64,000 nucleotides of DNA from NCBI GenBank assembly GCA_946414435.1, contig CAMKOM010000001.1, positions 42,402 through 106,401 on the forward strand, written 5' to 3'. The stretch is from an uncultured Bacteroidota bacterium. Lineage in GTDB: Bacteria > Bacteroidota > Bacteroidia > Bacteroidales > SZUA-534. The notes beneath the pieces are model-generated. The model worked only from the letters and a program-made list of their open reading frames with translations, had not been told where the DNA came from and did not search any database. Of this stretch, positions 55,183 to 63,324 are shown one piece after another (within the stretch, counting starts at the first letter, position 1; each line of letters opens with the position of its first letter). The position numbers and the translations under genes are program-made.

Positions 55183-57648
55183 CTATTTATTTTTCAGGCA
55201 ACTGCCAATTTTACTCTTCACCGCGTTGCAAAGCGAATCGTAAGTGTAACCGCTCGGGTAAATGGGTTGCAGAAATTTGACGCTCACTTTTGAGAAGAAA
55301 TGCGGCAGATGTTTGCCCCGTGGCAATGCATCGTAAGCACCGTTGATAACAACCGGGACAATCGGAACATTGAGCTCGGCGCTGAGTATGGCGAATGTTT
55401 TCTTGAATTCTCCAATCGAACCGTCGTTGGTGCGTGTGCCTTCGGGAAATATGATGATGTTGCGCCCCAAACGCAGTATTTCGGCCAATTTCTGAATCGA
55501 CTCTTTCAAATCGTTGTGAAGGTCCATCACAATAACATTGTTGCGACGCGCCATCAGCTGCAGGAAGCGGCTCTTGACGTGCTTTTTCTTCACGTAGAAA
55601 TATGTCTTGCGCATAATGCTGCGCTTGATGAACGATGCCACAAACAATCCATCGAAGAAGCTCTGGTGGTTGGGTGCAATGATGCACGGCCCCTGCGGTA
55701 TCTGCTCTGAGCCTTCGCCTCGGAACTTGAAGATGAGCTTAAACAGAATCTTGCTCGCGTTCCTAATAAGGTTCTGGGTTATCGATGTTTTTGGAAGTGT
55801 GAGCTGAATCTTCTCCTTCAGAATCATCGACCAATTGATGGTTTCGACCTGCAGTTTGGTTTTATGGTCGGCCACATGACGCGCAAGTTCGCCTATATTG
55901 CTGAATGCCACCAATTCAGCCTCGGTCATATCCAATCCGTACGACTGACGGATGAACTCAATGAGCCCGATTTTGCCAAGCGAATCGAGTGCAATATCGT
56001 ATTCAATGTGCTGACTTGCATGCACTTTGCTATTGGTCTGCTCTTCAACAAACGCCTTCAGGCTTTTGTATTCGTCGAAATCGGGTTCGGGTGCGGCCTT
56101 GCGTTTTTGCGCATTAGTAGCCACGTATTCCTGCAGTTTGTAGCGTTGGATTTTTCCCAAGTTGGTGCGCGGCAGTTCGCGGTCGATGATTGAGAACTGC
56201 ATAATGCGCTTGTACGACGACATGCGCGCGTTGAACTCCGGGAAGAACGTCTCTTTGAAATACCCCTTGGCATCCGGTATCTCCAACTCGTGCATCCGTG
56301 CATAATCGGGCGCGATGAGCGCATGCAACATTCCGTTATGCTCCATCACTGCCACTTCCTTGATTGGTGCCGACGCTGCCATCAGACTCTCCTCCAACTC
56401 CACGGGATTAATGTTCTTCCCGTTCGGAAGCACAATTATCTCCTTCTTGCGGCCTGTAATATAAAGGTATCCGTTTTTATCTATATAGCCCAAATCGCCG
56501 GTATGCAACCAACCATCGACAATAATCTGAGCGGTTTCTTCAGGGCGGTTGTAGTAGCCCTGCATAATGTTCGGTCCCTTTGCAACTATTTCGCCATCAA
56601 CAATTTTCATCTGCACACTCTCGAGTCGCTGCCCGGGTGTGCCCACACGCTCGCGGCCGGGGCGGTTGAAGGTTATCATTGGCGATGCCTCGCTCATTCC
56701 GTAACCCTCGAGCACAGTGAAACCCAACGTTTTATAGAATTTTCCGGTCTCAAGCGGCAGCGATGCTCCGCCGCACACCATTATGTCGATATGGCCGCCG
56801 AATGTCTCATGAACCTTTTTGAAAACAAATCGTCCGATACGCTTATTCGGCCTAATCGATAGAATGGCAAACAACGTTTTGGCGATGAAATTCTCAGAAA
56901 TTTTCACCTTCACAGCCTTATGAATCATTTCGTAAAGCCTTGGCACACCGATAATTATCGAAACTTGGTTTTTGCTCAGCGTTTCCATCAAATCAGCGCT
57001 TTGCATCGATGGCGACATTACCACCGTTGCACCTATCGACAACGGCATAATGACCGAGCCCATAAGTGGCAAAACGTGATGTAGCGGCAACAGTATCAAC
57101 ACTTTGCGGTCGGGACGGTAGATATCGACATTACCACTCACCTCAACGCAGTTTGCACGCAGATTGGCAAACGAAAGCATCACACCTTTTGGTGCGCCCG
57201 TGGTGCCCGATGTGTAGACAATGATTGCAGTCTTGTCGTCGGGATAGTCACGCTTAATATATTCTGATTCAGATATTTGCGGCAATTCAATATCGTCAAG
57301 ACAAACGTATTTCGGTGTATAGTTGAGCTTTATGCCCGCTTCTGTCACCGATGCGCTGTTGGCTTTGCTGAAAAACACCACCGAAGGCTGACAGTCGTTG
57401 AGCATATAAGCCACATCGTCGACCGATGCAGTAGCCTCAATCGGCACAACAATTTTGCCATTAAGCCACCCGGCATAAAAAGCGAAAATCCACTCGGGGC
57501 GGTTTTCTGAATAGATGGCAATCTTGTCGCCTTCTGTATTACTGAAGGTTGCGGCATACTGCTGCACAAGTTTTTGTAGTTCAGAGAAAGTATATGTATG
57601 CCATTTGGTGATAATGGCGGGTTTGTCGAGATACGAGAAATCAATCAT
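55183..57648 (-). CDS. Tri-domain enzyme: AMP-dependent acyl ligase, carrier-protein-like domain, PlsC-type acyltransferase
   Basis: Start moved to MIDFSYLDKPAII (57648). AMP-binding IVYTSGTTGAPKGVMLS, GYGMSE, WLHTGDLG. Carrier-like IALDSLGKIGLIEF. Acyltransferase HX4D in APNHQSFFDGL and FPEGTR. Confidence 0.8.
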   Translation of the reverse strand: MIDFSYLDKPAIITKWHTYTFSELQKLVQQYAATFSNTEGDKIAIYSENRPEWIFAFYAGWLNGKIVVPIEATASVDDVAYMLNDCQPSVVFFSKANSASVTEAGIKLNYTPKYVCLDDIELPQISESEYIKRDYPDDKTAIIVYTSGTTGAPKGVMLSFANLRANCVEVSGNVDIYRPDRKVLILLPLHHVLPLMGSVIMPLSIGATVVMSPSMQSADLMETLSKNQVSIIIGVPRLYEMIHKAVKVKISENFIAKTLFAILSIRPNKRIGRFVFKKVHETFGGHIDIMVCGGASLPLETGKFYKTLGFTVLEGYGMSEASPMITFNRPGRERVGTPGQRLESVQMKIVDGEIVAKGPNIMQGYYNRPEETAQIIVDGWLHTGDLGYIDKNGYLYITGRKKEIIVLPNGKNINPVELEESLMAASAPIKEVAVMEHNGMLHALIAPDYARMHELEIPDAKGYFKETFFPEFNARMSSYKRIMQFSIIDRELPRTNLGKIQRYKLQEYVATNAQKRKAAPEPDFDEYKSLKAFVEEQTNSKVHASQHIEYDIALDSLGKIGLIEFIRQSYGLDMTEAELVAFSNIGELARHVADHKTKLQVETINWSMILKEKIQLTLPKTSITQNLIRNASKILFKLIFKFRGEGSEQIPQGPCIIAPNHQSFFDGLFVASFIKRSIMRKTYFYVKKKHVKSRFLQLMARRNNVIVMDLHNDLKESIQKLAEILRLGRNIIIFPEGTRTNDGSIGEFKKTFAILSAELNVPIVPVVINGAYDALPRGKHLPHFFSKVSVKFLQPIYPSGYTYDSLCNAVKSKIGSCLKNK

Positions 57649-57959
57649 TTGCAAAATAATTTTTCGCGGCAAATGCGTGCAAAAATTATGCCAATACATT
57701 GTGATTAAGAACGTAAACGATGGGAATGGATTGATTGAGCAAGAGTGAATAAAAAAAAGATTTTACAAAGTCCTTCTTTAATAAAAAGAAGACTTTCCAA
57801 GATTGTTTTTAGTGCAATAAAGATTGCAAATCTTGCATAAATATATTTCACATCTCAAAATACACAATTAGTAATATTCTGACAATCAATCAATTTACTA
57901 TTGAAACACGAGTAAAAACGAACAAATTGTCAAAAGGTTCGTATATAAGCCACAAAAAA

Positions 57960-59069
57960 ATGGAAACTATGATGAGACTTGGGAAAAATATTATTCTGTT
58001 GGCTTTGCTGTTGGCTGGCTTTGCAGGTGACGTATTTGGAGCACCAAAATCTGACTTACCCGCTGTAATAAACACTGGGACAAACCAATATACCGATAAA
58101 AGCGAGTATAATATCACCAATACGACTATTTCTGGCAGTTCAACAATTGTTAGAATAAAAGGAAACCTTATTGTTAATGGCACATTAACTGTTACAGGTG
58201 CTACTTTGCTTGTTGAAGGTAACCTGCGTATAAAAAATGGCAGTGTAGTGAATGTGGATGAAGGCGCGATAGTAATGGTTACCGGAGTAGTTGAGTCAAA
58301 CGGACATGCCAATTTATCTAACGACTCTGATTTTGCAGCTATCGGTGGTTTAACCGGAAGCAATAATTTTAACCTTAATGTGGCTGATAATAGTATGGGC
58401 AACGAATGTAACACATATCTGCCTGGTGCGGGATATGCAGACCGGGAAGTTTTGACATTGATAACAAATGAATTGACCGAGATTCTGGAAAGCGCTAATA
58501 TTGATGTTCCAGAAGCTCTTGTATCGATTTCACCTCTACCCATTGAACTCACCTATTTCGTTGCCCGCCGAACTTCGGATGGCGTGAAATTCGAGTGGCA
58601 GACGGCCTCGGAGAAGGACAACGACTACTTCACCATTGAGTACAGTACCGATGCGCTTAACTTCAGCGAGTTGACAACAGTGAGCGGTGCGGGCACGTCA
58701 ACGGAAATAATAAACTATGAATACAATTACAGCACCAATGCTACCGGTGTGATGTATTACCGTCTGCGCCAGACCGATTACGACGGCCAAACGGAATGCT
58801 CTGACATAGTGGCTCTCACCATTGCCGGGCAGCAGGCCGCCAACGTCAGCAATATCGACATAAAGATTTACCCGAATCCAGCGACCGATTATGTGCAAAT
58901 TAATGGGGACAATATCGTGAGAGTGGAATTTGTAAATGCAAACGGACGAGTTCTGTCAGCAGCGAGCCTACAGGCTTCGTACAGCATAAGCAATCTGCCG
59001 CAGGGAGTTAATTATGTAATTGTACACACAACTCAAGGCAACGCCATTCGGCAATTCATAAAACATTGA
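57960..59069 (+). CDS. T9SS-sorted surface protein with beta-helix-like N-terminal region
   Basis: ATG 57960 preferred over the TTG at 57927. Signal peptide LLALLLAGFAGDVFGA. Repetitive GNLIVNGTLTVTGATLLVEGNLRIKNGSVV. C-terminal IKIYPNPATDYVQING...NYVIVHT is a T9SS CTD. Confidence 0.7.
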   Translation: METMMRLGKNIILLALLLAGFAGDVFGAPKSDLPAVINTGTNQYTDKSEYNITNTTISGSSTIVRIKGNLIVNGTLTVTGATLLVEGNLRIKNGSVVNVDEGAIVMVTGVVESNGHANLSNDSDFAAIGGLTGSNNFNLNVADNSMGNECNTYLPGAGYADREVLTLITNELTEILESANIDVPEALVSISPLPIELTYFVARRTSDGVKFEWQTASEKDNDYFTIEYSTDALNFSELTTVSGAGTSTEIINYEYNYSTNATGVMYYRLRQTDYDGQTECSDIVALTIAGQQAANVSNIDIKIYPNPATDYVQINGDNIVRVEFVNANGRVLSAASLQASYSISNLPQGVNYVIVHTTQGNAIRQFIKH

Positions 59070-59115: not shown

Positions 59116-59158
59116 ATAAAAAAGGCCGCCCGAATCGTCTTCAGGCGGCCTTCTGTGT
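59116..59158. terminator. Bidirectional Rho-independent terminator
   Basis: ATAAAAAAGGCCGCC-N13-GGCGGCCTTCTGTGTT between convergent genes. Confidence 0.7.
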
Positions 59159-59174
59159 TATCTAACACTCTCTC

Positions 59175-60392
59175 CTACAGCGCCCTGACATACGTTGAAG
59201 GCGAGTCGAGAACTTTGATTTTGTCAACGTTTTCCTTGTCGATGGTGCTGATTTGCAGCAGCGAATCGACCACCGCGTCGGCCATTGTGGCGGGGATGCT
59301 CACGGCGCTGCGCACGAGCGACTGTTTGCCAAGTTCGCCTTGCCCCGATATGCGGGTGATGCGCGTTGTGGTTGCGCCTGTTGCGCCCACGCTCAAGCAG
59401 GTGGCTCGCAGGTCGTCGATGCGGTCCTCGTCCGATATGATGGTCACCTCGCAGTTGTCAGAATGAACACAAGCGTTGCGGTTGTCGGCCGACCCTTCGG
59501 CGTCGAGACGGCGGCGCCAGTTGGTGTTGCCCTTGAGCGAGTCGATGGCGGCTATCACCTGCTCCATTGACGCGGCGAACTTCTGCCCGCCAATCTTCAT
59601 ATAGGTATCGATAAGTCCCACAGTGATAGGCGTTTGATATATGAATCCACGTCCAGGGCGGTCGAGTTTGGCCTGCTCAGCCAGCAGTTGGGCAATGCTG
59701 CTCGAATCCTGCTCGGGCATAATCAGGTGCACAATCTCCTTCTCGGCGGGAATGGTGACGCGGATAAGGCCCAGTTGGTCGCGGATGTCGTTGCCAGTGG
59801 CGTTGGTGAGTTGCGGCACGCAGATTCCCAGGTCGAGCGCGTTCTTGGCCAGATTGTCGCCCTCGCCGTTCTCCGACAGCACGCAAATCATATACGAAAG
59901 GTGGTTCAGAAGCGTAACGTCGTTGTTTTCAACCTTTTTGCTATCCAGAAAAGCCAGATTGATGACAGGCGGCTGATTGCTGAACTCCATAAGGTCCTGC
60001 GAGAAGATGGTTCCGCGGCCAGGCACGTTCAGTCCCGCCAGGGCGATGATGGCACCGATGGTGTCTCTCACGTTCTCGCGCGGCACGGTGAAGCGGAAAA
60101 TGGTTGAAGGTGTGCTTCTTAACTTCACTGTATCGCCAGGAATGCCGAACGGCAGCGGCTTGACAAGTTCGCGCACGTTTCGGGCCTGCTCAATGTAGGC
60201 GTCAACCTCGAGTTGCGTCAGAAAATCCTGCACAACAGGCGCCAAATTGTTGTTAATCATACAGGTTATAAGGCTCACGCGGTGCGGCGTGTAGATGCCT
60301 TTGGCCATTTGCGTCCGCCAAACGGTACGCGACGGCGAGAACGCGCGGTTCCTGCTCGCCTTCTCCATTTCCATATTATCATTCATTGTCAT
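59175..60392 (-). CDS. Single-chain protein with three tandem PII-like (GlnB-fold) repeats
   Basis: Three ~110-130-aa segments, each with a beta-alpha-beta...beta-alpha-beta pattern. Examples: VSLITCMINNNLAPVVQDFLTQLEV...TIFRFTVPRENVRDTIGAIIALAGLNVPGRGTIFSQDL; MICVLSENGEGDNLAKNALDLGI...IVHLIMPEQDSSSIAQLLAEQAKLDRPGRGFIYQTPI; VTIISDEDRIDDLRATCLSVGATGATTTRI...SAVSIPATMADAVVDSLLQIS...KIKVLD. The start overlaps the upstream stop (ATGACAATGAATGA). Confidence 0.55.
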   Translation of the reverse strand: MTMNDNMEMEKASRNRAFSPSRTVWRTQMAKGIYTPHRVSLITCMINNNLAPVVQDFLTQLEVDAYIEQARNVRELVKPLPFGIPGDTVKLRSTPSTIFRFTVPRENVRDTIGAIIALAGLNVPGRGTIFSQDLMEFSNQPPVINLAFLDSKKVENNDVTLLNHLSYMICVLSENGEGDNLAKNALDLGICVPQLTNATGNDIRDQLGLIRVTIPAEKEIVHLIMPEQDSSSIAQLLAEQAKLDRPGRGFIYQTPITVGLIDTYMKIGGQKFAASMEQVIAAIDSLKGNTNWRRRLDAEGSADNRNACVHSDNCEVTIISDEDRIDDLRATCLSVGATGATTTRITRISGQGELGKQSLVRSAVSIPATMADAVVDSLLQISTIDKENVDKIKVLDSPSTYVRAL

Positions 60393-62436
60393 TGGTCTTT
60401 AGGGTTTTACGTTGTTTCAGTCGGGTGAAGATGCCGAACAGAAGCACAGTGATGATTGGCCAGGCCGAAGCCATTGCCAGAATGCCGAAACCGTCGGAAA
60501 TGTTGAGCGCTCCGCCGATTCCAAGGCCCAGAGCCAGCACCAGCGGCACGGTCACGGGTCCTGTGGTCACGCCGCCGCTATCCCAGGCGATTGAGGCGAA
60601 TCCGTCCTCGCTGAAAATGGTGAGAATCAGCAGCAAACCGTAAGAAATGACTATCAGCCAGACAAGCGGCAAATCGAACAAGATGCGCGCCAAACCGAGT
60701 ACAATGCCCATTCCCACGCCCACCGACACCACCTGTACAATCTGCTTGCGCTTGATGGCGCCAACGGTCAGGTCTTCAACCGTGATTCCCAATGCGTTAA
60801 GCGCGGGCTCGGCAAGTGTCGCGCCATAGCCAAGGCCGAAGGCGAACAGCAGCACCAGCACAAGTCCCAAAACCGACAACTTGCTGTTGAACAGCGGCTT
60901 TTCGGTAATTATCTGTGTATAAGTGTGTTTCTCACTGTCGTAATAAGCGGGATTGAACTCAACAGGCTTAACCTCGCCCTTCTCGTAAAGGTTGAAGAAG
61001 GTCAGATTTTCGCCCTCGGGGCTGATGCCGCTGTAGAGCATTGTGCTGTCGAAATTATTGATAACCACCTGCTCAACAAACTTCTCCTCGCTTGCGAAAG
61101 CCTTCGGCAACTGCGAGCCCACTTCGCCGCCGAGCGAACCCAAACCAAGTTTGATGCCCGATGTGAGCAGAATCATACCCACCAGCGTGAATGTCAGGCC
61201 CAGAGCCACTTCGTCTTTGTTGCGGATTTTCTCGCGAAGGAAGAGCGTGAGCACCAGAATGAGCAGCAGCGTGAGCGGAATCACAGCCCGCAGGCCGCCA
61301 ACCGTCTCCTCTTTGAGCGTTGTGCTCAGCGGCTCGGTGACGGGCGCCTCGCTTGCAATCTCAACCGACGAGAGCAGCCCGCGCTCGTAATCGCTTGCGC
61401 GAAGTGCGAGCCACTCCTGAAGTGTCTCATTTCCAAGATATTTCTTGCAGACCGAATCGTTTGTGGCGATGGCCATAACGGCTTTGTCGAACTGCGCCGA
61501 ATCGTTGCCAAACAAGGCGCGGCGGCCCGCCTCACTGCCGTGAGTGAAGGCGTGCTCGGCAATCATTGCCTCGTTGCCGTTGAACAGTTGAGCCGAAACG
61601 GTCTTATTTTCAGGCGCGAAGAATACTTCCTCGGTTGTGGCGGCGGGAATGAGCGTGTTCAGATACAAGCCAAGCCCCAGCACAGCCGCAATCGGAAATG
61701 CCGACGCCAGCATAATGATGCCGAATCCGCCGTCGTTGCCCGAGCCCTTGTTGGCCGTGCGCGAAACACCGATACCAAGCGCCAGCACAAGCGGCACGGT
61801 CACTGCACCAGTGGTTACGGCGCCGCAGTCCCAAGCCAGGCCTATTATCTTCGACAGATTGGCGTTGAACGACGCGTAAACCGTCATTGCCATAACCAGC
61901 GGAATGACCACGAAGATTATCGGTTTGATGTTCCAACCGTAGTAGAATCGGCACATACCGAGCGCCACAGCCAGTCCCACGCCCGCTCCAACGGCGTTGA
62001 CAAGCATTCCCGAGTATTTGTCGAGAATCATATAAAGCAGCGGTGAGTCCCACGCCGTGATGGTTGCGCCAGCCGTCTTCAGCGAACTGATGGCAGGCTC
62101 GGCAAGCGTTGAGCCGAAGCCCAGAATGACGCCGAAAATGCAGATTGGCACAATGCCCACTTTGGCGGGCAACTTCACTCCCACGCGCTCGCCAATGGGC
62201 ATCATACCCAGCACGAGTCCCTCAAGGAAGAAGGCCAGACCGAACACCACAAGGGCTATTCCGCCCGCCGTTCCCCAAGCGTTGGCCAGCGGCGTGCGCA
62301 GAATGGCCACCTGAAAAAACACAAGGTATAGGATGATAAAGGCTACCGACTTTATCTGTCCCATAATCCGCGATTTAGCGTAGCCGCCTATCATTGCAAG
62401 CGAATCGCCAATCGGAAGACGTTTCCTGTTTATCAT
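60379..62436 (-). CDS. Fused double DUF1538-like polytopic membrane protein (putative transporter)
   Basis: 685 aa with clear internal duplication (GLAWDCGAVTTGAVTVPLVLALGIG versus SIAWDSGGVTTGPVTVPLVLALGLG). The DUF1538 family call is from memory. Confidence 0.6.
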   Translation of the reverse strand: MINRKRLPIGDSLAMIGGYAKSRIMGQIKSVAFIILYLVFFQVAILRTPLANAWGTAGGIALVVFGLAFFLEGLVLGMMPIGERVGVKLPAKVGIVPICIFGVILGFGSTLAEPAISSLKTAGATITAWDSPLLYMILDKYSGMLVNAVGAGVGLAVALGMCRFYYGWNIKPIIFVVIPLVMAMTVYASFNANLSKIIGLAWDCGAVTTGAVTVPLVLALGIGVSRTANKGSGNDGGFGIIMLASAFPIAAVLGLGLYLNTLIPAATTEEVFFAPENKTVSAQLFNGNEAMIAEHAFTHGSEAGRRALFGNDSAQFDKAVMAIATNDSVCKKYLGNETLQEWLALRASDYERGLLSSVEIASEAPVTEPLSTTLKEETVGGLRAVIPLTLLLILVLTLFLREKIRNKDEVALGLTFTLVGMILLTSGIKLGLGSLGGEVGSQLPKAFASEEKFVEQVVINNFDSTMLYSGISPEGENLTFFNLYEKGEVKPVEFNPAYYDSEKHTYTQIITEKPLFNSKLSVLGLVLVLLFAFGLGYGATLAEPALNALGITVEDLTVGAIKRKQIVQVVSVGVGMGIVLGLARILFDLPLVWLIVISYGLLLILTIFSEDGFASIAWDSGGVTTGPVTVPLVLALGLGIGGALNISDGFGILAMASAWPIITVLLFGIFTRLKQRKTLKTNDNE

Positions 62437-62730
62437 ATTCTATTTCTTATTTAGTTGACTATCAAGTTATTACCTATTCACCATTGGTCATATAATCATT
62501 TTCAAATTCTTGCACTGAAAATCTTACAATTATACGGTTAATATCAATAACGTCAAATGGCGGATTTGGGCACTTTTTTTTATATCAGATATCAGTTTAA
62601 CCACCGCTTTTCTCCCGCTTGCAGTGCGGAAGCGCAAGGCGAATGCGGAAATTGTACAGCACGCTATTTATGGTGTCAATAAATTGGAATGTAATCAAAC
62701 TCATGACAAAGCTAAAATTGCGTATCTAAA

Positions 62731-63324
62731 TCACCGCAATTCAATCACCCGCGGTTCGCGCTCAATTTTAATGTCGTATGCCATAAGTGCGGCGTTGCTA
62801 AAGACAATTCCGTTTTTCTGGCAAAGACCGTAATTGTTGTGCGAATGGCCGAAAAGGTGCAGCCGCAGTGCGGGCAGCTCAAACACTTGCTTCAGAATCT
62901 CGCTGCTGCCATACTCGCCAATGCCGAGACTCTCCTCTCGGTCGAGAATGCCGAGCGGCGACTCGTGCGTGACAAGCACCTGAGTATCAGCGGGAATGGC
63001 GGCGTAGTGCATATAACCGGTGCCGTAGAACCTCACTCCGTCAATGGTTACGCCACGGTCTTGCAAAAAGTGGACGTTGGCTGGCAGGTTTTCGATATTA
63101 TCGGCATCGTAAAGGCATAAATCGTGGTTGCCGACAACGAAAATCTTGTACCTGTAGGGCAACTCAATGAACCAATTGAGAAATTTCAGGCACTCGTCAT
63201 CCGTTCCGAAATGGGTGAAATCGCCGCTGTGGACAATCACATCGGCCTCGGGCAAACGGCCAATCTGATTGTGAAGCCCGTGAGTATCGGAAAGGTGAAG
63301 GATTTTCATTTTCTGAAATTTCAA
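62731..63324 (-). CDS. Calcineurin-like metallophosphoesterase
   Basis: MKILHLSDTHG, GDFTHFG, VVGNHD, GHSH motifs. Confidence 0.85.
   Translation of the reverse strand: MKFQKMKILHLSDTHGLHNQIGRLPEADVIVHSGDFTHFGTDDECLKFLNWFIELPYRYKIFVVGNHDLCLYDADNIENLPANVHFLQDRGVTIDGVRFYGTGYMHYAAIPADTQVLVTHESPLGILDREESLGIGEYGSSEILKQVFELPALRLHLFGHSHNNYGLCQKNGIVFSNAALMAYDIKIEREPRVIELR

What the first reader, a model, noticed from the sequence alone, without database searches (positions are those of the whole stretch)
59175..62436. Translationally coupled pair: fused double-DUF1538 membrane protein + single-chain triple PII-like protein (pseudo-trimer?)
**Seen.** The 685-aa membrane protein is an obvious internal duplication; the AWD(C/S)G.VTTG.VTVPLVLALG(I/L)G motif occurs twice. 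Its stop codon overlaps the start of a 405-aa soluble protein (ATGACAATGAATGA). That soluble protein divides into three segments, each with a beta-alpha-beta / beta-alpha-beta pattern. Two of the three end in a GRG(T/F)I(F/Y) motif reminiscent of the PII GDGKIF strand.

**Established.** PII signal proteins are homotrimers that gate transporters, as in AmtB-GlnK and SbtA-SbtB. From memory, DUF1538 genes usually occur as two separate genes next to a small PII-like gene, and their substrate is unknown.

**Inference.** Here both partners appear to be fused. One polypeptide would supply all three PII-like lobes as an asymmetric pseudo-trimer, and one polypeptide would supply both membrane halves. 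This compact version of an uncharacterised transporter-regulator system would be attractive for structural and functional study.
Basis: partly seen in the sequence, partly recalled or inferred. Interest (0 to 1): 0.65.

Follow-up and report, generated by a model that had tools for sequence, protein, structure and literature searches.

The report
DUF1538 transporter with three-in-one PII partner
Two overlapping genes encode a 14-helix membrane transporter of the barely studied DUF1538/UmpAB family and a cytoplasmic partner made of three fused PII sensor domains; the pair is real, conserved across several phyla and undescribed in the papers I could search, but it is not unique to this genome.

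Summary
On the minus strand, a 685-aa gene (60379-62436) overlaps a 405-aa gene (59175-60392), and a strong terminator follows.

**Membrane protein.** It has two DUF1538 domains (Pfam E 2e-105). The halves are 37% identical (E 5e-21). They match NCBIfam UmpA and UmpB below the equivalog cut-offs.

**Soluble protein.** It has three homologous PII-fold domains:
- Profile comparisons: D1~D2 98% and D2~D3 96% probability.
- AlphaFold pTM is 0.79, and the top Foldseek hits are GlnB, GlnK, GlnZ and SbtB.
- Only D2 keeps strong conservation. D3 has lost the B-loop motif.

**Distribution.** The triple-PII protein has relatives in 345 species genomes. In all 66 loci where both genes are complete, it follows a long fused DUF1538 gene. 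Fusion states co-vary:
- split pair with one or two small PII genes;
- short fusion with a double PII;
- long fusion with a triple PII.

- The substrate is not wholly unknown: UmpAB is a reported Na+(Li+,K+)/H+ antiporter.
- The fused form is a widespread family.

**Open points.** I read this as a PII-gated cation/proton transporter. It is a new variant of a known kind, of moderate interest.

The parts
60379..62436 (-). 685-aa fused double-DUF1538 (UmpA-like + UmpB-like) membrane transporter gene
   Evidence: ORF. Pfam PF07556 E 2.1e-105 in 2 stretches. NCBIfam UmpA (res 25-256) and UmpB (res 527-675), both below equivalog cut-off. AF2 pLDDT 77, pTM 0.75.
61663..62364 (-). First DUF1538 half (residues ~25-258), 7 predicted membrane helices, N-terminus cytoplasmic
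   Evidence: NCBIfam UmpA match, AF2 helices, K+R loop bias
61330..61653 (-). Helical linker domain between the halves (residues 262-369), predicted to lie outside the cytoplasm; absent from short fused forms
   Evidence: AF2 short helices 269-354. Net charge -5.4 across 36 homologues. Short fused forms are 478-500 aa.
60382..61329 (-). Second DUF1538 half (residues 370-685), inverted relative to the first, C-terminus cytoplasmic
   Evidence: Pfam stretch 389-670. BLASTP between halves E 5e-21. Loop charge bias is flipped relative to half 1.
60886..61095 (-). ~70-aa beta-strand insert in the second half (residues 448-517), predicted extracytoplasmic
   Evidence: AF2 strands 452-512, net charge -3.2
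60379..60392 (-). Gene overlap (14 nt from Met1; 8 nt, ATGAATGA, from Met3)
   Evidence: Sequence. 60 of 66 homologous pairs overlap, mode 8 nt.
59175..60392 (-). 405-aa triple-PII-like cytoplasmic protein gene
   Evidence: ORF. AF2 pLDDT 74, pTM 0.79 with three PII-type units. Foldseek top hits are PII, GlnK, GlnZ and SbtB, prob 1.0.
59967..60296 (-). PII-like domain D1 (residues 33-142), B-loop PGRGTIF
   Evidence: hhalign D1 vs D2 prob 98.3%, E 1.3e-14. Aligns to the first domain of the clostridial double-PII.
59607..59915 (-). PII-like domain D2 (residues 160-262): the most conserved domain. It has a T-loop-like segment, TGNDIRDQLGLIRVTIPAEKE, and the B-loop PGRGFIY.
   Evidence: PDB profile hit to GlnK1 at res 217-253. 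Aligns to the single DUF1538-linked PII, prob 97.1%. 19 of 103 columns are >=90% conserved. Residues 200-213 have low pLDDT.
59478..59606 (-). Conserved helical linker after D2 (residues 263-305; A274, Q278, D284, W292 and R293 near-invariant)
   Evidence: Alignments A2 and the 374-sequence set, AF2 helices 276-298 at low confidence
59178..59477 (-). PII-like domain D3 (residues 306-405); B-loop motif lost
   Evidence: Pfam P-II E 3.4e-4 at res 315-379, below cut-off. hhalign D2 vs D3 prob 96.1%, and D3 vs Methylocystis PII 94.9%.
59120..59154 (-). Intrinsic-terminator-like hairpin (15-bp stem plus T run) closing the two-gene unit
   Evidence: sequence
62437..62730 (-). 294-nt intergenic leader upstream of the transporter gene; no known RNA family
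   Evidence: Rfam scan: nothing below E 8.7. Sigma-70-like hexamers were found, but they are weak evidence in Bacteroidota.

Best explanation
This is a self-contained two-gene module.

**Gene 1** encodes a 14-helix secondary transporter. It consists of two homologous 7-helix DUF1538 halves joined in one chain and inserted in opposite orientations. It most likely exchanges monovalent cations (Na+/K+/Li+) for protons, like its only characterised relative, UmpAB.

**Gene 2**, which overlaps gene 1 and is probably translationally coupled to it, encodes a dedicated cytoplasmic regulator made of three PII-fold domains. I infer that these pack into one compact body, probably an intrachain pseudo-trimer.

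**Inferred mechanism.** Only the middle domain (D2) keeps a conserved T-loop, the Lys that corresponds to PII Lys58, and the B-loop glycines. D2 would bind a small-molecule signal, plausibly an adenine nucleotide or second messenger. Its T-loop and the conserved helix that follows would dock on the cytoplasmic face of a single transporter and switch it on or off. This is analogous to GlnK-AmtB and SbtB-SbtA, but with 1:1 asymmetric stoichiometry.

**Shown:** domain content, homology, fold class, conservation pattern, gene linkage and the fusion series.

**Inferred:** membrane topology, substrate, ligand, pseudo-trimer geometry, physical contact and direction of regulation.
For: **Transporter**
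- Pfam DUF1538 x2 and NCBIfam UmpA+UmpB matches.
- The halves are 37% identical, E 5e-21.
- UmpAB shows Na+(Li+,K+)/H+ antiport as a heterodimer (PMC5484666).
- K+R loop bias alternates and flips between the halves in 36 homologues (with AF2 helices).
- Invariant membrane-embedded acidic residues include E113, D203, E543 and D619.

**Regulator**
- Three PII-type units, pTM 0.79.
- Foldseek top hits are all PII, GlnK, GlnZ or SbtB, prob 1.0, TM 0.6-0.7 on the target.
- hhalign: D1~D2 98.3%, D2~D3 96.1%.
- GlnK1 profile hit on D2.
- D2 and the following linker are the most conserved parts.

**Linkage**
- In 66 of 66 loci with both genes complete, the triple-PII gene follows a fused DUF1538 gene.
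- The same holds in Spirochaetes, Sericytochromatia and Desulfobacteraceae.
- 60 of 66 pairs overlap.
- Every DUF1538 locus I examined has PII gene(s) directly downstream.
- Fusion states co-vary.

**Ion-homeostasis context**
- Kup x2 and NhaA lie beside the module in L085.
- An NhaP2-type K+/H+ antiporter lies adjacent in 8 loci.
Against: - No direct evidence of a protein-protein contact, a ligand or a substrate.
- The UmpA and UmpB matches are far below the equivalog cut-offs (216 vs 490 bits, 150 vs 500 bits), so the substrate may differ.
- UmpAB worked in E. coli without any PII partner (PMC5484666), so the partner is not needed for transport as such.
- In D1 and D2 the residue aligned to PII Lys90 is Thr or Phe, and the Pfam P-II score is below the gathering cut-off. 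ATP binding therefore cannot be assumed.
- Double-PII and two-gene PII versions exist. PII domains at DUF1538 loci therefore do not always come in threes, which weakens the pseudo-trimer logic.
- I could not inspect the model geometry.
- In this window the neighbouring genes (a metallophosphoesterase and a T9SS-tailed protein) say nothing about function.
Confidence: 0.6

Rival explanations
1. The regulatory role is the same, but the three PII domains do not form an intrachain pseudo-trimer. Instead, the chains oligomerise, for example three chains forming stacked or side-by-side homotypic trimers. Double-PII chains would have to do this to build trimers.
For: Double-PII chains (222-282 aa) and loci with two separate PII genes exist at DUF1538 loci. 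The double aligns collinearly with D1+D2, so D3 could be an add-on and not the third member of a ring.
Against: The monomer model has pTM 0.79, which suggests a defined intrachain packing. The strongly unequal conservation of D1, D2 and D3 fits one asymmetric body better than three symmetric homotrimers. The overlapping genes suggest near 1:1 expression.
Confidence: 0.22
2. The transporter moves something other than Na+/K+/Li+ against H+, for example an anion, bicarbonate or a small metabolite. The triple-PII protein would sense the matching metabolic state.
For: The NCBIfam UmpA and UmpB scores are well below equivalog level. The only functional evidence for the family is one heterologous complementation study (PMC5484666). 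PII-like partners are known for NH4+ and HCO3- transporters (established knowledge: GlnK-AmtB, SbtB-SbtA). Other loci have ClC, GntP or CitMHS transporters as neighbours.
Against: The family hallmark motifs and the invariant membrane carboxylates are shared in both halves. Cation/proton antiporters and Kup sit next to the module in several lineages.
Confidence: 0.3
3. The triple-PII protein is not a signal-responsive switch. It is a constitutive structural or assembly subunit of the transporter, or a degenerate PII-fold scaffold like CutA-type proteins, with no ligand control.
For: The canonical PII signature is degraded. Pfam P-II is below cut-off. The residue aligned to Lys90 is not conserved, and D3 lacks the B-loop.
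Against: The best-conserved positions are the ones that form the ligand cleft and T-loop in PII proteins: K218, G247, G249 and the G198-R211 loop. UmpAB functions without such a subunit (PMC5484666).
Confidence: 0.12

Closest known systems
UmpAB, the two-component Na+(Li+,K+)/H+ antiporter of Halomonas zhaodongensis (DUF1538, PF07556; NCBIfam NF041627/NF041628; PMC5484666)
   Same: Same Pfam family in both halves. The first half matches the UmpA model best and the second matches UmpB. Both are built from two homologous 7-helix units that act together.
   Different: Here the two units are one 685-aa chain with an added ~110-aa helical linker and a ~70-aa beta insert. Scores are far below equivalog cut-offs. 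The UmpAB paper does not mention a PII partner (0 occurrences of 'PII' or 'P-II').
GlnK-AmtB and SbtB-SbtA (PII or PII-like trimers that plug trimeric transporters)
   Same: A PII-fold protein is encoded directly beside, and co-conserved with, a membrane transporter. It has a flexible T-loop-like segment and a B-loop glycine motif in the conserved domain.
   Different: There are three diverged PII domains in one chain, not a homotrimer. The partner is a single 14-helix inverted-repeat protein, with no evidence of threefold symmetry. The PII sequence signature is weak (Pfam below cut-off), and the ligand is unknown.
DUF1538-linked single and double PII proteins ('P-II family nitrogen regulator', 110-122 aa and 222-282 aa), e.g. 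Methylocystis rosea WP_124740562.1 and Peptoclostridium acidaminophilum WP_025436965.1
   Same: Same clade. The single PII aligns to D2 (prob 97.1%), the double aligns to D1+D2 (prob 97.9%), and they share the G-x-G...EPEKE(I/V)V T-loop/beta3 motif. The position downstream of DUF1538 is the same.
   Different: The triple form adds D3 and a conserved helical linker. It always goes with the long (626-733 aa) fused transporter and not with split or short-fused ones.

Membership tests
DUF1538 / UmpAB transporter family (PF07556) | Pfam PF07556 match above the gathering score | tested here: met
   351 bits against a cut-off of 22.6, in two stretches
DUF1538 / UmpAB transporter family (PF07556) | Two homologous DUF1538 units acting as a pair | tested here: met
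   Halves are 37% identical, E 5e-21, with UmpA-like and UmpB-like matches in order
UmpA/UmpB equivalogs (NF041627, NF041628) | Score above the NCBIfam equivalog cut-off | tested here: not met
   216 vs 490 bits and 150 vs 500 bits. This is a family member, not an equivalog.
UmpA/UmpB equivalogs (NF041627, NF041628) | Na+(Li+,K+)/H+ antiport activity | not testable with these tools
   Needs E. coli KNabc complementation and everted-vesicle assays, as in PMC5484666
PII signal-transduction superfamily (PF00543 and PII-like) | Ferredoxin-like beta-alpha-beta-beta-alpha-beta fold | tested here: met
   Three such units in the AF2 model. Foldseek top hits are PII, GlnK, GlnZ and SbtB, prob 1.0, target TM 0.6-0.7.
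PII signal-transduction superfamily (PF00543 and PII-like) | Pfam P-II match above the gathering score | tested here: not met
   21.3 bits against a cut-off of 25, on D3 only. Profile-level homology to bona fide P-II proteins is nonetheless significant.
PII signal-transduction superfamily (PF00543 and PII-like) | T-loop between beta2 and beta3, and a B-loop glycine motif (GxxGxGK) before beta4 | tested here: inconclusive
   D2 has a conserved ~20-residue loop of low pLDDT and P-G-x-G, and D1 has PGRG. The position aligned to Lys90 is Thr or Phe, and D3 lacks the motif. GlnB residue numbers are from memory.
PII signal-transduction superfamily (PF00543 and PII-like) | Trimeric assembly with ligand sites in the inter-subunit clefts | not testable with these tools
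   Three domains in one chain and pTM 0.79 are compatible with a pseudo-trimer.
PII-gated transporter systems (GlnK-AmtB, SbtB-SbtA type) | Conserved genetic linkage of the PII-like gene with the transporter gene | tested here: met
   66 of 66 complete loci, plus remote phyla. 60 of 66 pairs overlap.
PII-gated transporter systems (GlnK-AmtB, SbtB-SbtA type) | Ligand-dependent physical binding that changes transport | not testable with these tools
   Needs pull-down, cryo-EM and transport assays

The most novel reading that the evidence does not exclude
The triple-PII chain is a true single-chain, asymmetric PII pseudo-trimer. Only one of its three T-loops (D2) and one or two ligand clefts remain functional. 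It would have evolved to regulate one monomeric, inverted-repeat 14-helix transporter at 1:1 stoichiometry. That would remove the symmetry mismatch a PII homotrimer would face on a non-trimeric target. The stepwise co-fusion of transporter and regulator (split with separate PII genes, short fusion with double PII, long fusion with triple PII) would record that evolution.
Probability: 0.4. Interest if true: 0.7.

Novelty: new variant of a known kind. Interest (0 to 1): 0.55.

Why it matters
PII proteins are among the most widespread signal integrators, and their textbook form is a symmetric homotrimer acting on trimeric targets.

- **New architecture for the superfamily.** A conserved family that puts three diverged PII domains in one chain, always beside one asymmetric transporter, would be a natural experiment. 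It would show which of the three sites and loops are actually needed.
- **A little-known transporter family.** DUF1538 has a single functional report. Sequence and fold searches found no solved relative in the PDB copy. A fused, 1:1 transporter-regulator pair is a convenient target for cryo-EM and for defining substrate and signal.
- **Limits.** Nothing here bears on this rumen bacterium specifically. The same module has been flagged many times elsewhere in this scan, so the value lies in the family and not in this locus.

Tried and rejected
- **Known riboswitch in the 294-nt leader.** The Rfam scan at E<=10 gave only a chance sRNA hit at E 8.7. Rejected.
- **Direct-coupling analysis for ring closure.** I ran it on 374 family sequences (Neff ~250) to look for D1-D2, D2-D3 and D3-D1 contacts. 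The top pairs were blocks of adjacent columns typical of indel or alignment-shift artefacts. Uninformative and not used.
- **A solved structure for DUF1538.** The sequence search found nothing. Foldseek on the AF2 model gave only noise, with TM below 0.2.
- **A single-chain multi-PII structure in the PDB.** No Foldseek hit covered more than one domain convincingly; query TM was at most 0.21.
- **First genome-collection scan.** I repeated it with A3.
- **Conserved third partner gene.** Clustering of flanking ORFs from ~70 loci found only lineage-specific synteny (a 962-aa protein, a radical-SAM protein and others) and an NhaP2-type antiporter in 8 loci. There is no universal third gene.
- **Literature.** Searches for DUF1538/UmpAB, PII pseudo-trimers and tandem or fused PII domains found no description of this pairing or of a multi-domain PII chain.
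Full report
**1. What is in the sequence**

On the minus strand there are two ORFs: 60379..62436 (685 aa) and 59175..60392 (405 aa).

The junction reads AATGACAATGAATGA. The stop of the first gene (TGA, 60381-60379) lies inside the start of the second. The overlap is 14 nt if translation starts at Met1 (60392) and 8 nt if it starts at Met3 (60386).

A hairpin with a 15-bp stem and a T run follows the second gene at 59154..59120. A 294-nt spacer precedes the first gene, and it has no Rfam match. The unit is therefore a two-gene operon.

The flanking genes are not informative. They are a calcineurin-like phosphoesterase (62731-63324) and a protein with a T9SS sorting tail (57927-59069).

The genome is a 3.3-Mb Salinivirgaceae-type MAG. 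Its best match is a sheep-rumen MAG at 100% identity. It has only this one DUF1538 locus and two ordinary PII genes elsewhere, one of them next to an AmtB-like gene.

**2. The membrane protein**

*Family.* Pfam DUF1538 matches twice (E 2.1e-105). NCBIfam assigns the first half to UmpA and the second to UmpB, both far below the equivalog cut-offs.

*Duplication.* The two halves are 37% identical over 154 residues (E 5e-21). Each carries the motifs G-x-G-(S/A)-TLAEPA and AWD(C/S)G-x-VTTG-x-VTVPLVLALG. Invariant acidic residues in the family alignment include E113, D203, E543 and D619.

*What is known.* UmpAB of Halomonas zhaodongensis is the one characterised DUF1538 pair. It works only as a heterodimer and shows Na+(Li+,K+)/H+ antiport in E. 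coli KNabc (PMC5484666).

*Model.* An AlphaFold model built from 36 homologues has pLDDT 77 and pTM 0.75. It shows seven helical membrane elements per half, a bundle of short helices at residues 269-354 and a five-strand insert at 452-512.

*Topology (inferred).* Across the 36 homologues, the K+R excess of the loops alternates along the chain and flips between equivalent loops of the two halves:

| Loop | First half | Second half |
|---|---|---|
| 1-2 | -0.1 | +1.9 |
| 2-3 | +1.9 | -3.2 |
| 3-4 | -1.2 | +1.7 |
| 6-7 | +2.0 | -1.0 |

Both termini are positive, and the linker (-5.4) and the insert (-3.2) are acidic. By the positive-inside rule this indicates a 7+7 inverted repeat. Both termini would be cytoplasmic, and the two extra domains would lie outside. 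This is an inference, not a measurement.

*Solved relatives.* Neither the sequence search nor Foldseek (best TM below 0.2) finds a solved structure of this fold.

**3. The soluble protein**

*Direct database matches are weak.*
- Pfam gives only a sub-threshold P-II hit on residues 315-379 (E 3.4e-4).
- NCBIfam gives nothing.
- A family profile hits archaeal GlnK1 at residues 217-253 (E 0.005).

*Model.* The AlphaFold model (46 homologues; pLDDT 74, pTM 0.79) has three beta-alpha-beta-beta-alpha-beta units at 35-138, 162-260 and 308-403. Two helices lie between units 2 and 3. Confidence is low at 200-213 and 265-307. The top Foldseek hits are plant, bacterial and archaeal PII, GlnK, GlnZ and SbtB, with probability 1.0 and TM 0.6-0.7 on the target.

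*Homology between the three units.* With a 374-sequence family alignment, profile-profile comparison gives:

| Comparison | Probability | E-value |
|---|---|---|
| D1 vs D2 | 98.3% | 1.3e-14 |
| D2 vs D3 | 96.1% | 2.8e-9 |
| D1 vs D3 | 50% | 1.6e-4 |
| D3 vs a single-domain DUF1538-linked PII | 94.9% | 4.6e-8 |

All three units are therefore homologous PII-type domains.

*Unequal conservation.* The mean top-residue frequencies are:

| Region | Mean frequency |
|---|---|
| D2 | 0.59 |
| D2-D3 linker | 0.51 |
| D3 | 0.42 |
| D1 | 0.39 |

Nineteen of the 30 columns that are at least 90% conserved lie in D2. They cover the loop G198-R211, K218-E219 at the start of beta3, and P246-G247-x-G249 in the B-loop. 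In the linker, A274, Q278, D284, W292 and R293 are also near-invariant.

*Comparison with canonical PII.*
- D1 keeps PGRGTIF.
- D3 has lost the motif.
- By alignment to GlnK, K218 sits where PII has Lys58, and G247/G249 sit where it has Gly87/Gly89.
- The position of Lys90 is Phe (Thr in D1).

The GlnB numbering is from my memory. A ligand cleft is therefore plausible, but its specificity cannot be read off.

**4. How common the pair is, and what goes with what**

*Family size.*
- The 405-aa protein has 345 relatives among 50%-identity cluster representatives.
- Relatives occur in 345 species genomes of the GTDB-based collection. These are mostly Bacteroidales, with some Cytophagales and Spirochaetes.
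- More distant ~374-aa members occur in Spirochaetota, Desulfobacterota, Sericytochromatia, Fibrobacterota and others.

*Linkage.*
- In every one of the 66 fetched loci where both genes are complete, the triple-PII gene follows a fused double-DUF1538 gene of 609-733 aa. The other 14 of the 80 loci are cut by contig ends or carry frameshifts.
- Sixty of the 66 pairs overlap, most often by 8 nt.
- The same arrangement holds for three remote members, whose fused partners are 670-711 aa.

*Rarity.* In an even sample of 300 Bacteroidota genomes plus the window's own, only 3 have the triple form and 9 have any DUF1538.

*Fusion series.* Other DUF1538 loci show a graded series:

| DUF1538 form | PII partner downstream | Examples |
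|---|---|---|
| Split pair (219-252 aa each) | One small PII gene | Methylocystis |
| Split pair (219-252 aa each) | Two separate ~110-aa PII genes | Two Bacteroidota genomes |
| Short fusion (478-500 aa) | Double-PII chain (222-282 aa) | Peptoclostridium, Paraclostridium, two Bacteroidota genomes |
| Long fusion (609-733 aa) | Triple-PII chain | This window and 66 loci |

The double chain aligns collinearly with D1+D2 (probability 97.9%). The single PII aligns with D2 (97.1%). The fusion states of transporter and regulator thus co-vary in every locus I inspected, and a PII gene follows DUF1538 in all of them.

*Context.* No third gene is universally linked. An NhaP2-type K+/H+ antiporter (Na_H_Exchanger + TrkA_C) lies beside the module in 8 loci. 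One spirochaete locus has two Kup genes and NhaA nearby. This fits a role in ion homeostasis.

**5. Most likely mechanism**

- *Shown.* A DUF1538 double-domain membrane protein and a three-domain PII-fold protein are encoded as an overlapping, strictly co-conserved pair. The middle PII domain and the helix after it carry the conservation.
- *Inferred.* The transporter is a 14-helix inverted-repeat cation/proton exchanger. The triple-PII protein folds into one compact body, probably a pseudo-trimer. It senses a small molecule through the D2 cleft. It then uses the flexible D2 loop and the following helix to bind the cytoplasmic face of one transporter and gate it, in the manner of GlnK on AmtB or SbtB on SbtA.

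With one regulator chain per transporter chain, only one T-loop would be needed. That would explain why D1 and D3 have drifted. I put 0.6 on this overall picture and about 0.4 on the specific asymmetric pseudo-trimer reading.

The main rivals, which overlap with the main picture and with one another, are:
- oligomers of chains instead of an intrachain ring, favoured by the existence of double-PII forms;
- a different substrate;
- a non-signalling structural subunit.

**6. What could not be done**

- A coupling analysis meant to detect ring closure was dominated by alignment artefacts.

**7. Comparison with what is known, and novelty**

The pair works like a PII-gated transporter. The transporter belongs to the DUF1538/UmpAB family, but it is not an UmpAB equivalog. 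The partner belongs to the PII superfamily by fold and profile homology, but it fails the Pfam threshold and departs from the defining homotrimer.

I found no paper that describes a DUF1538-PII pairing or a multi-domain PII chain. Public annotations call these proteins "hypothetical protein" or "nitrogen regulatory protein PII".

Earlier notes of this scan have flagged the same module in many other genomes and read it the same way. Those notes are not independent evidence. They do show that this locus is one ordinary member of a widespread, unstudied family.

Verdict: a real feature and a new variant of a known kind, of moderate interest for the family and not for this particular genome.

Noticed in passing
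window 62437-62730 (minus strand): The leader before the transporter gene is unusually long, at 294 nt. It contains a GC-rich stem region (~62585-62640) followed by an A-run. No Rfam family matched (best E 8.7). I did not check whether it is conserved in related loci.
   Followed up: partly
L085 1-9000 (Spirochaetes MAG GCA_016214035.1): The fused DUF1538 and triple-PII pair sits directly after two Kup (K_trans) genes and near CitMHS and NhaA genes. This looks like a cation-homeostasis neighbourhood.
   Followed up: no
L035, L036, L052, L062, L063, L068, L078, L080 (e.g. L062 2356-3825): A 487-495-aa NhaP2-type antiporter (Na_H_Exchanger + TrkA_C) lies next to the module in 8 loci. In L035, L062, L063, L068 and L078 it sits upstream on the same strand, ~60-120 nt away in the last four. 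The loci include the cultured Perlabentimonas gracilis and Ekhidna sp.
   Followed up: partly
L024 (2.1-kb contig labelled Candidatus Micrarchaeota archaeon); L036 and L050 (MAGs labelled Chitinophaga pinensis and Bacteroides fragilis): These records carry triple-PII genes ~60% identical to the Bacteroidales ones. The archaeal label on a 2-kb contig looks like a binning error, and the species names on the MAGs look unreliable.
   Followed up: no
L045 3948-6008; L020 3925-6011; L036 5998-7209: In a few MAGs the fused DUF1538 gene or the triple-PII gene is broken into several ORFs. These are frameshifts or assembly errors, possibly pseudogenes.
   Followed up: no
window 55183-57699 (minus strand): An 838-aa ORF appears to combine an acyl-AMP ligase-like region with a PlsC-type acyltransferase motif region.
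   Followed up: no
L093 1642-2433 and L094 602-1450: The double-PII chains of two Bacteroidota genomes have a 40-70-residue low-complexity Ser/Pro/Asp-rich spacer between the two domains. The clostridial 222-aa versions lack it.
   Followed up: no
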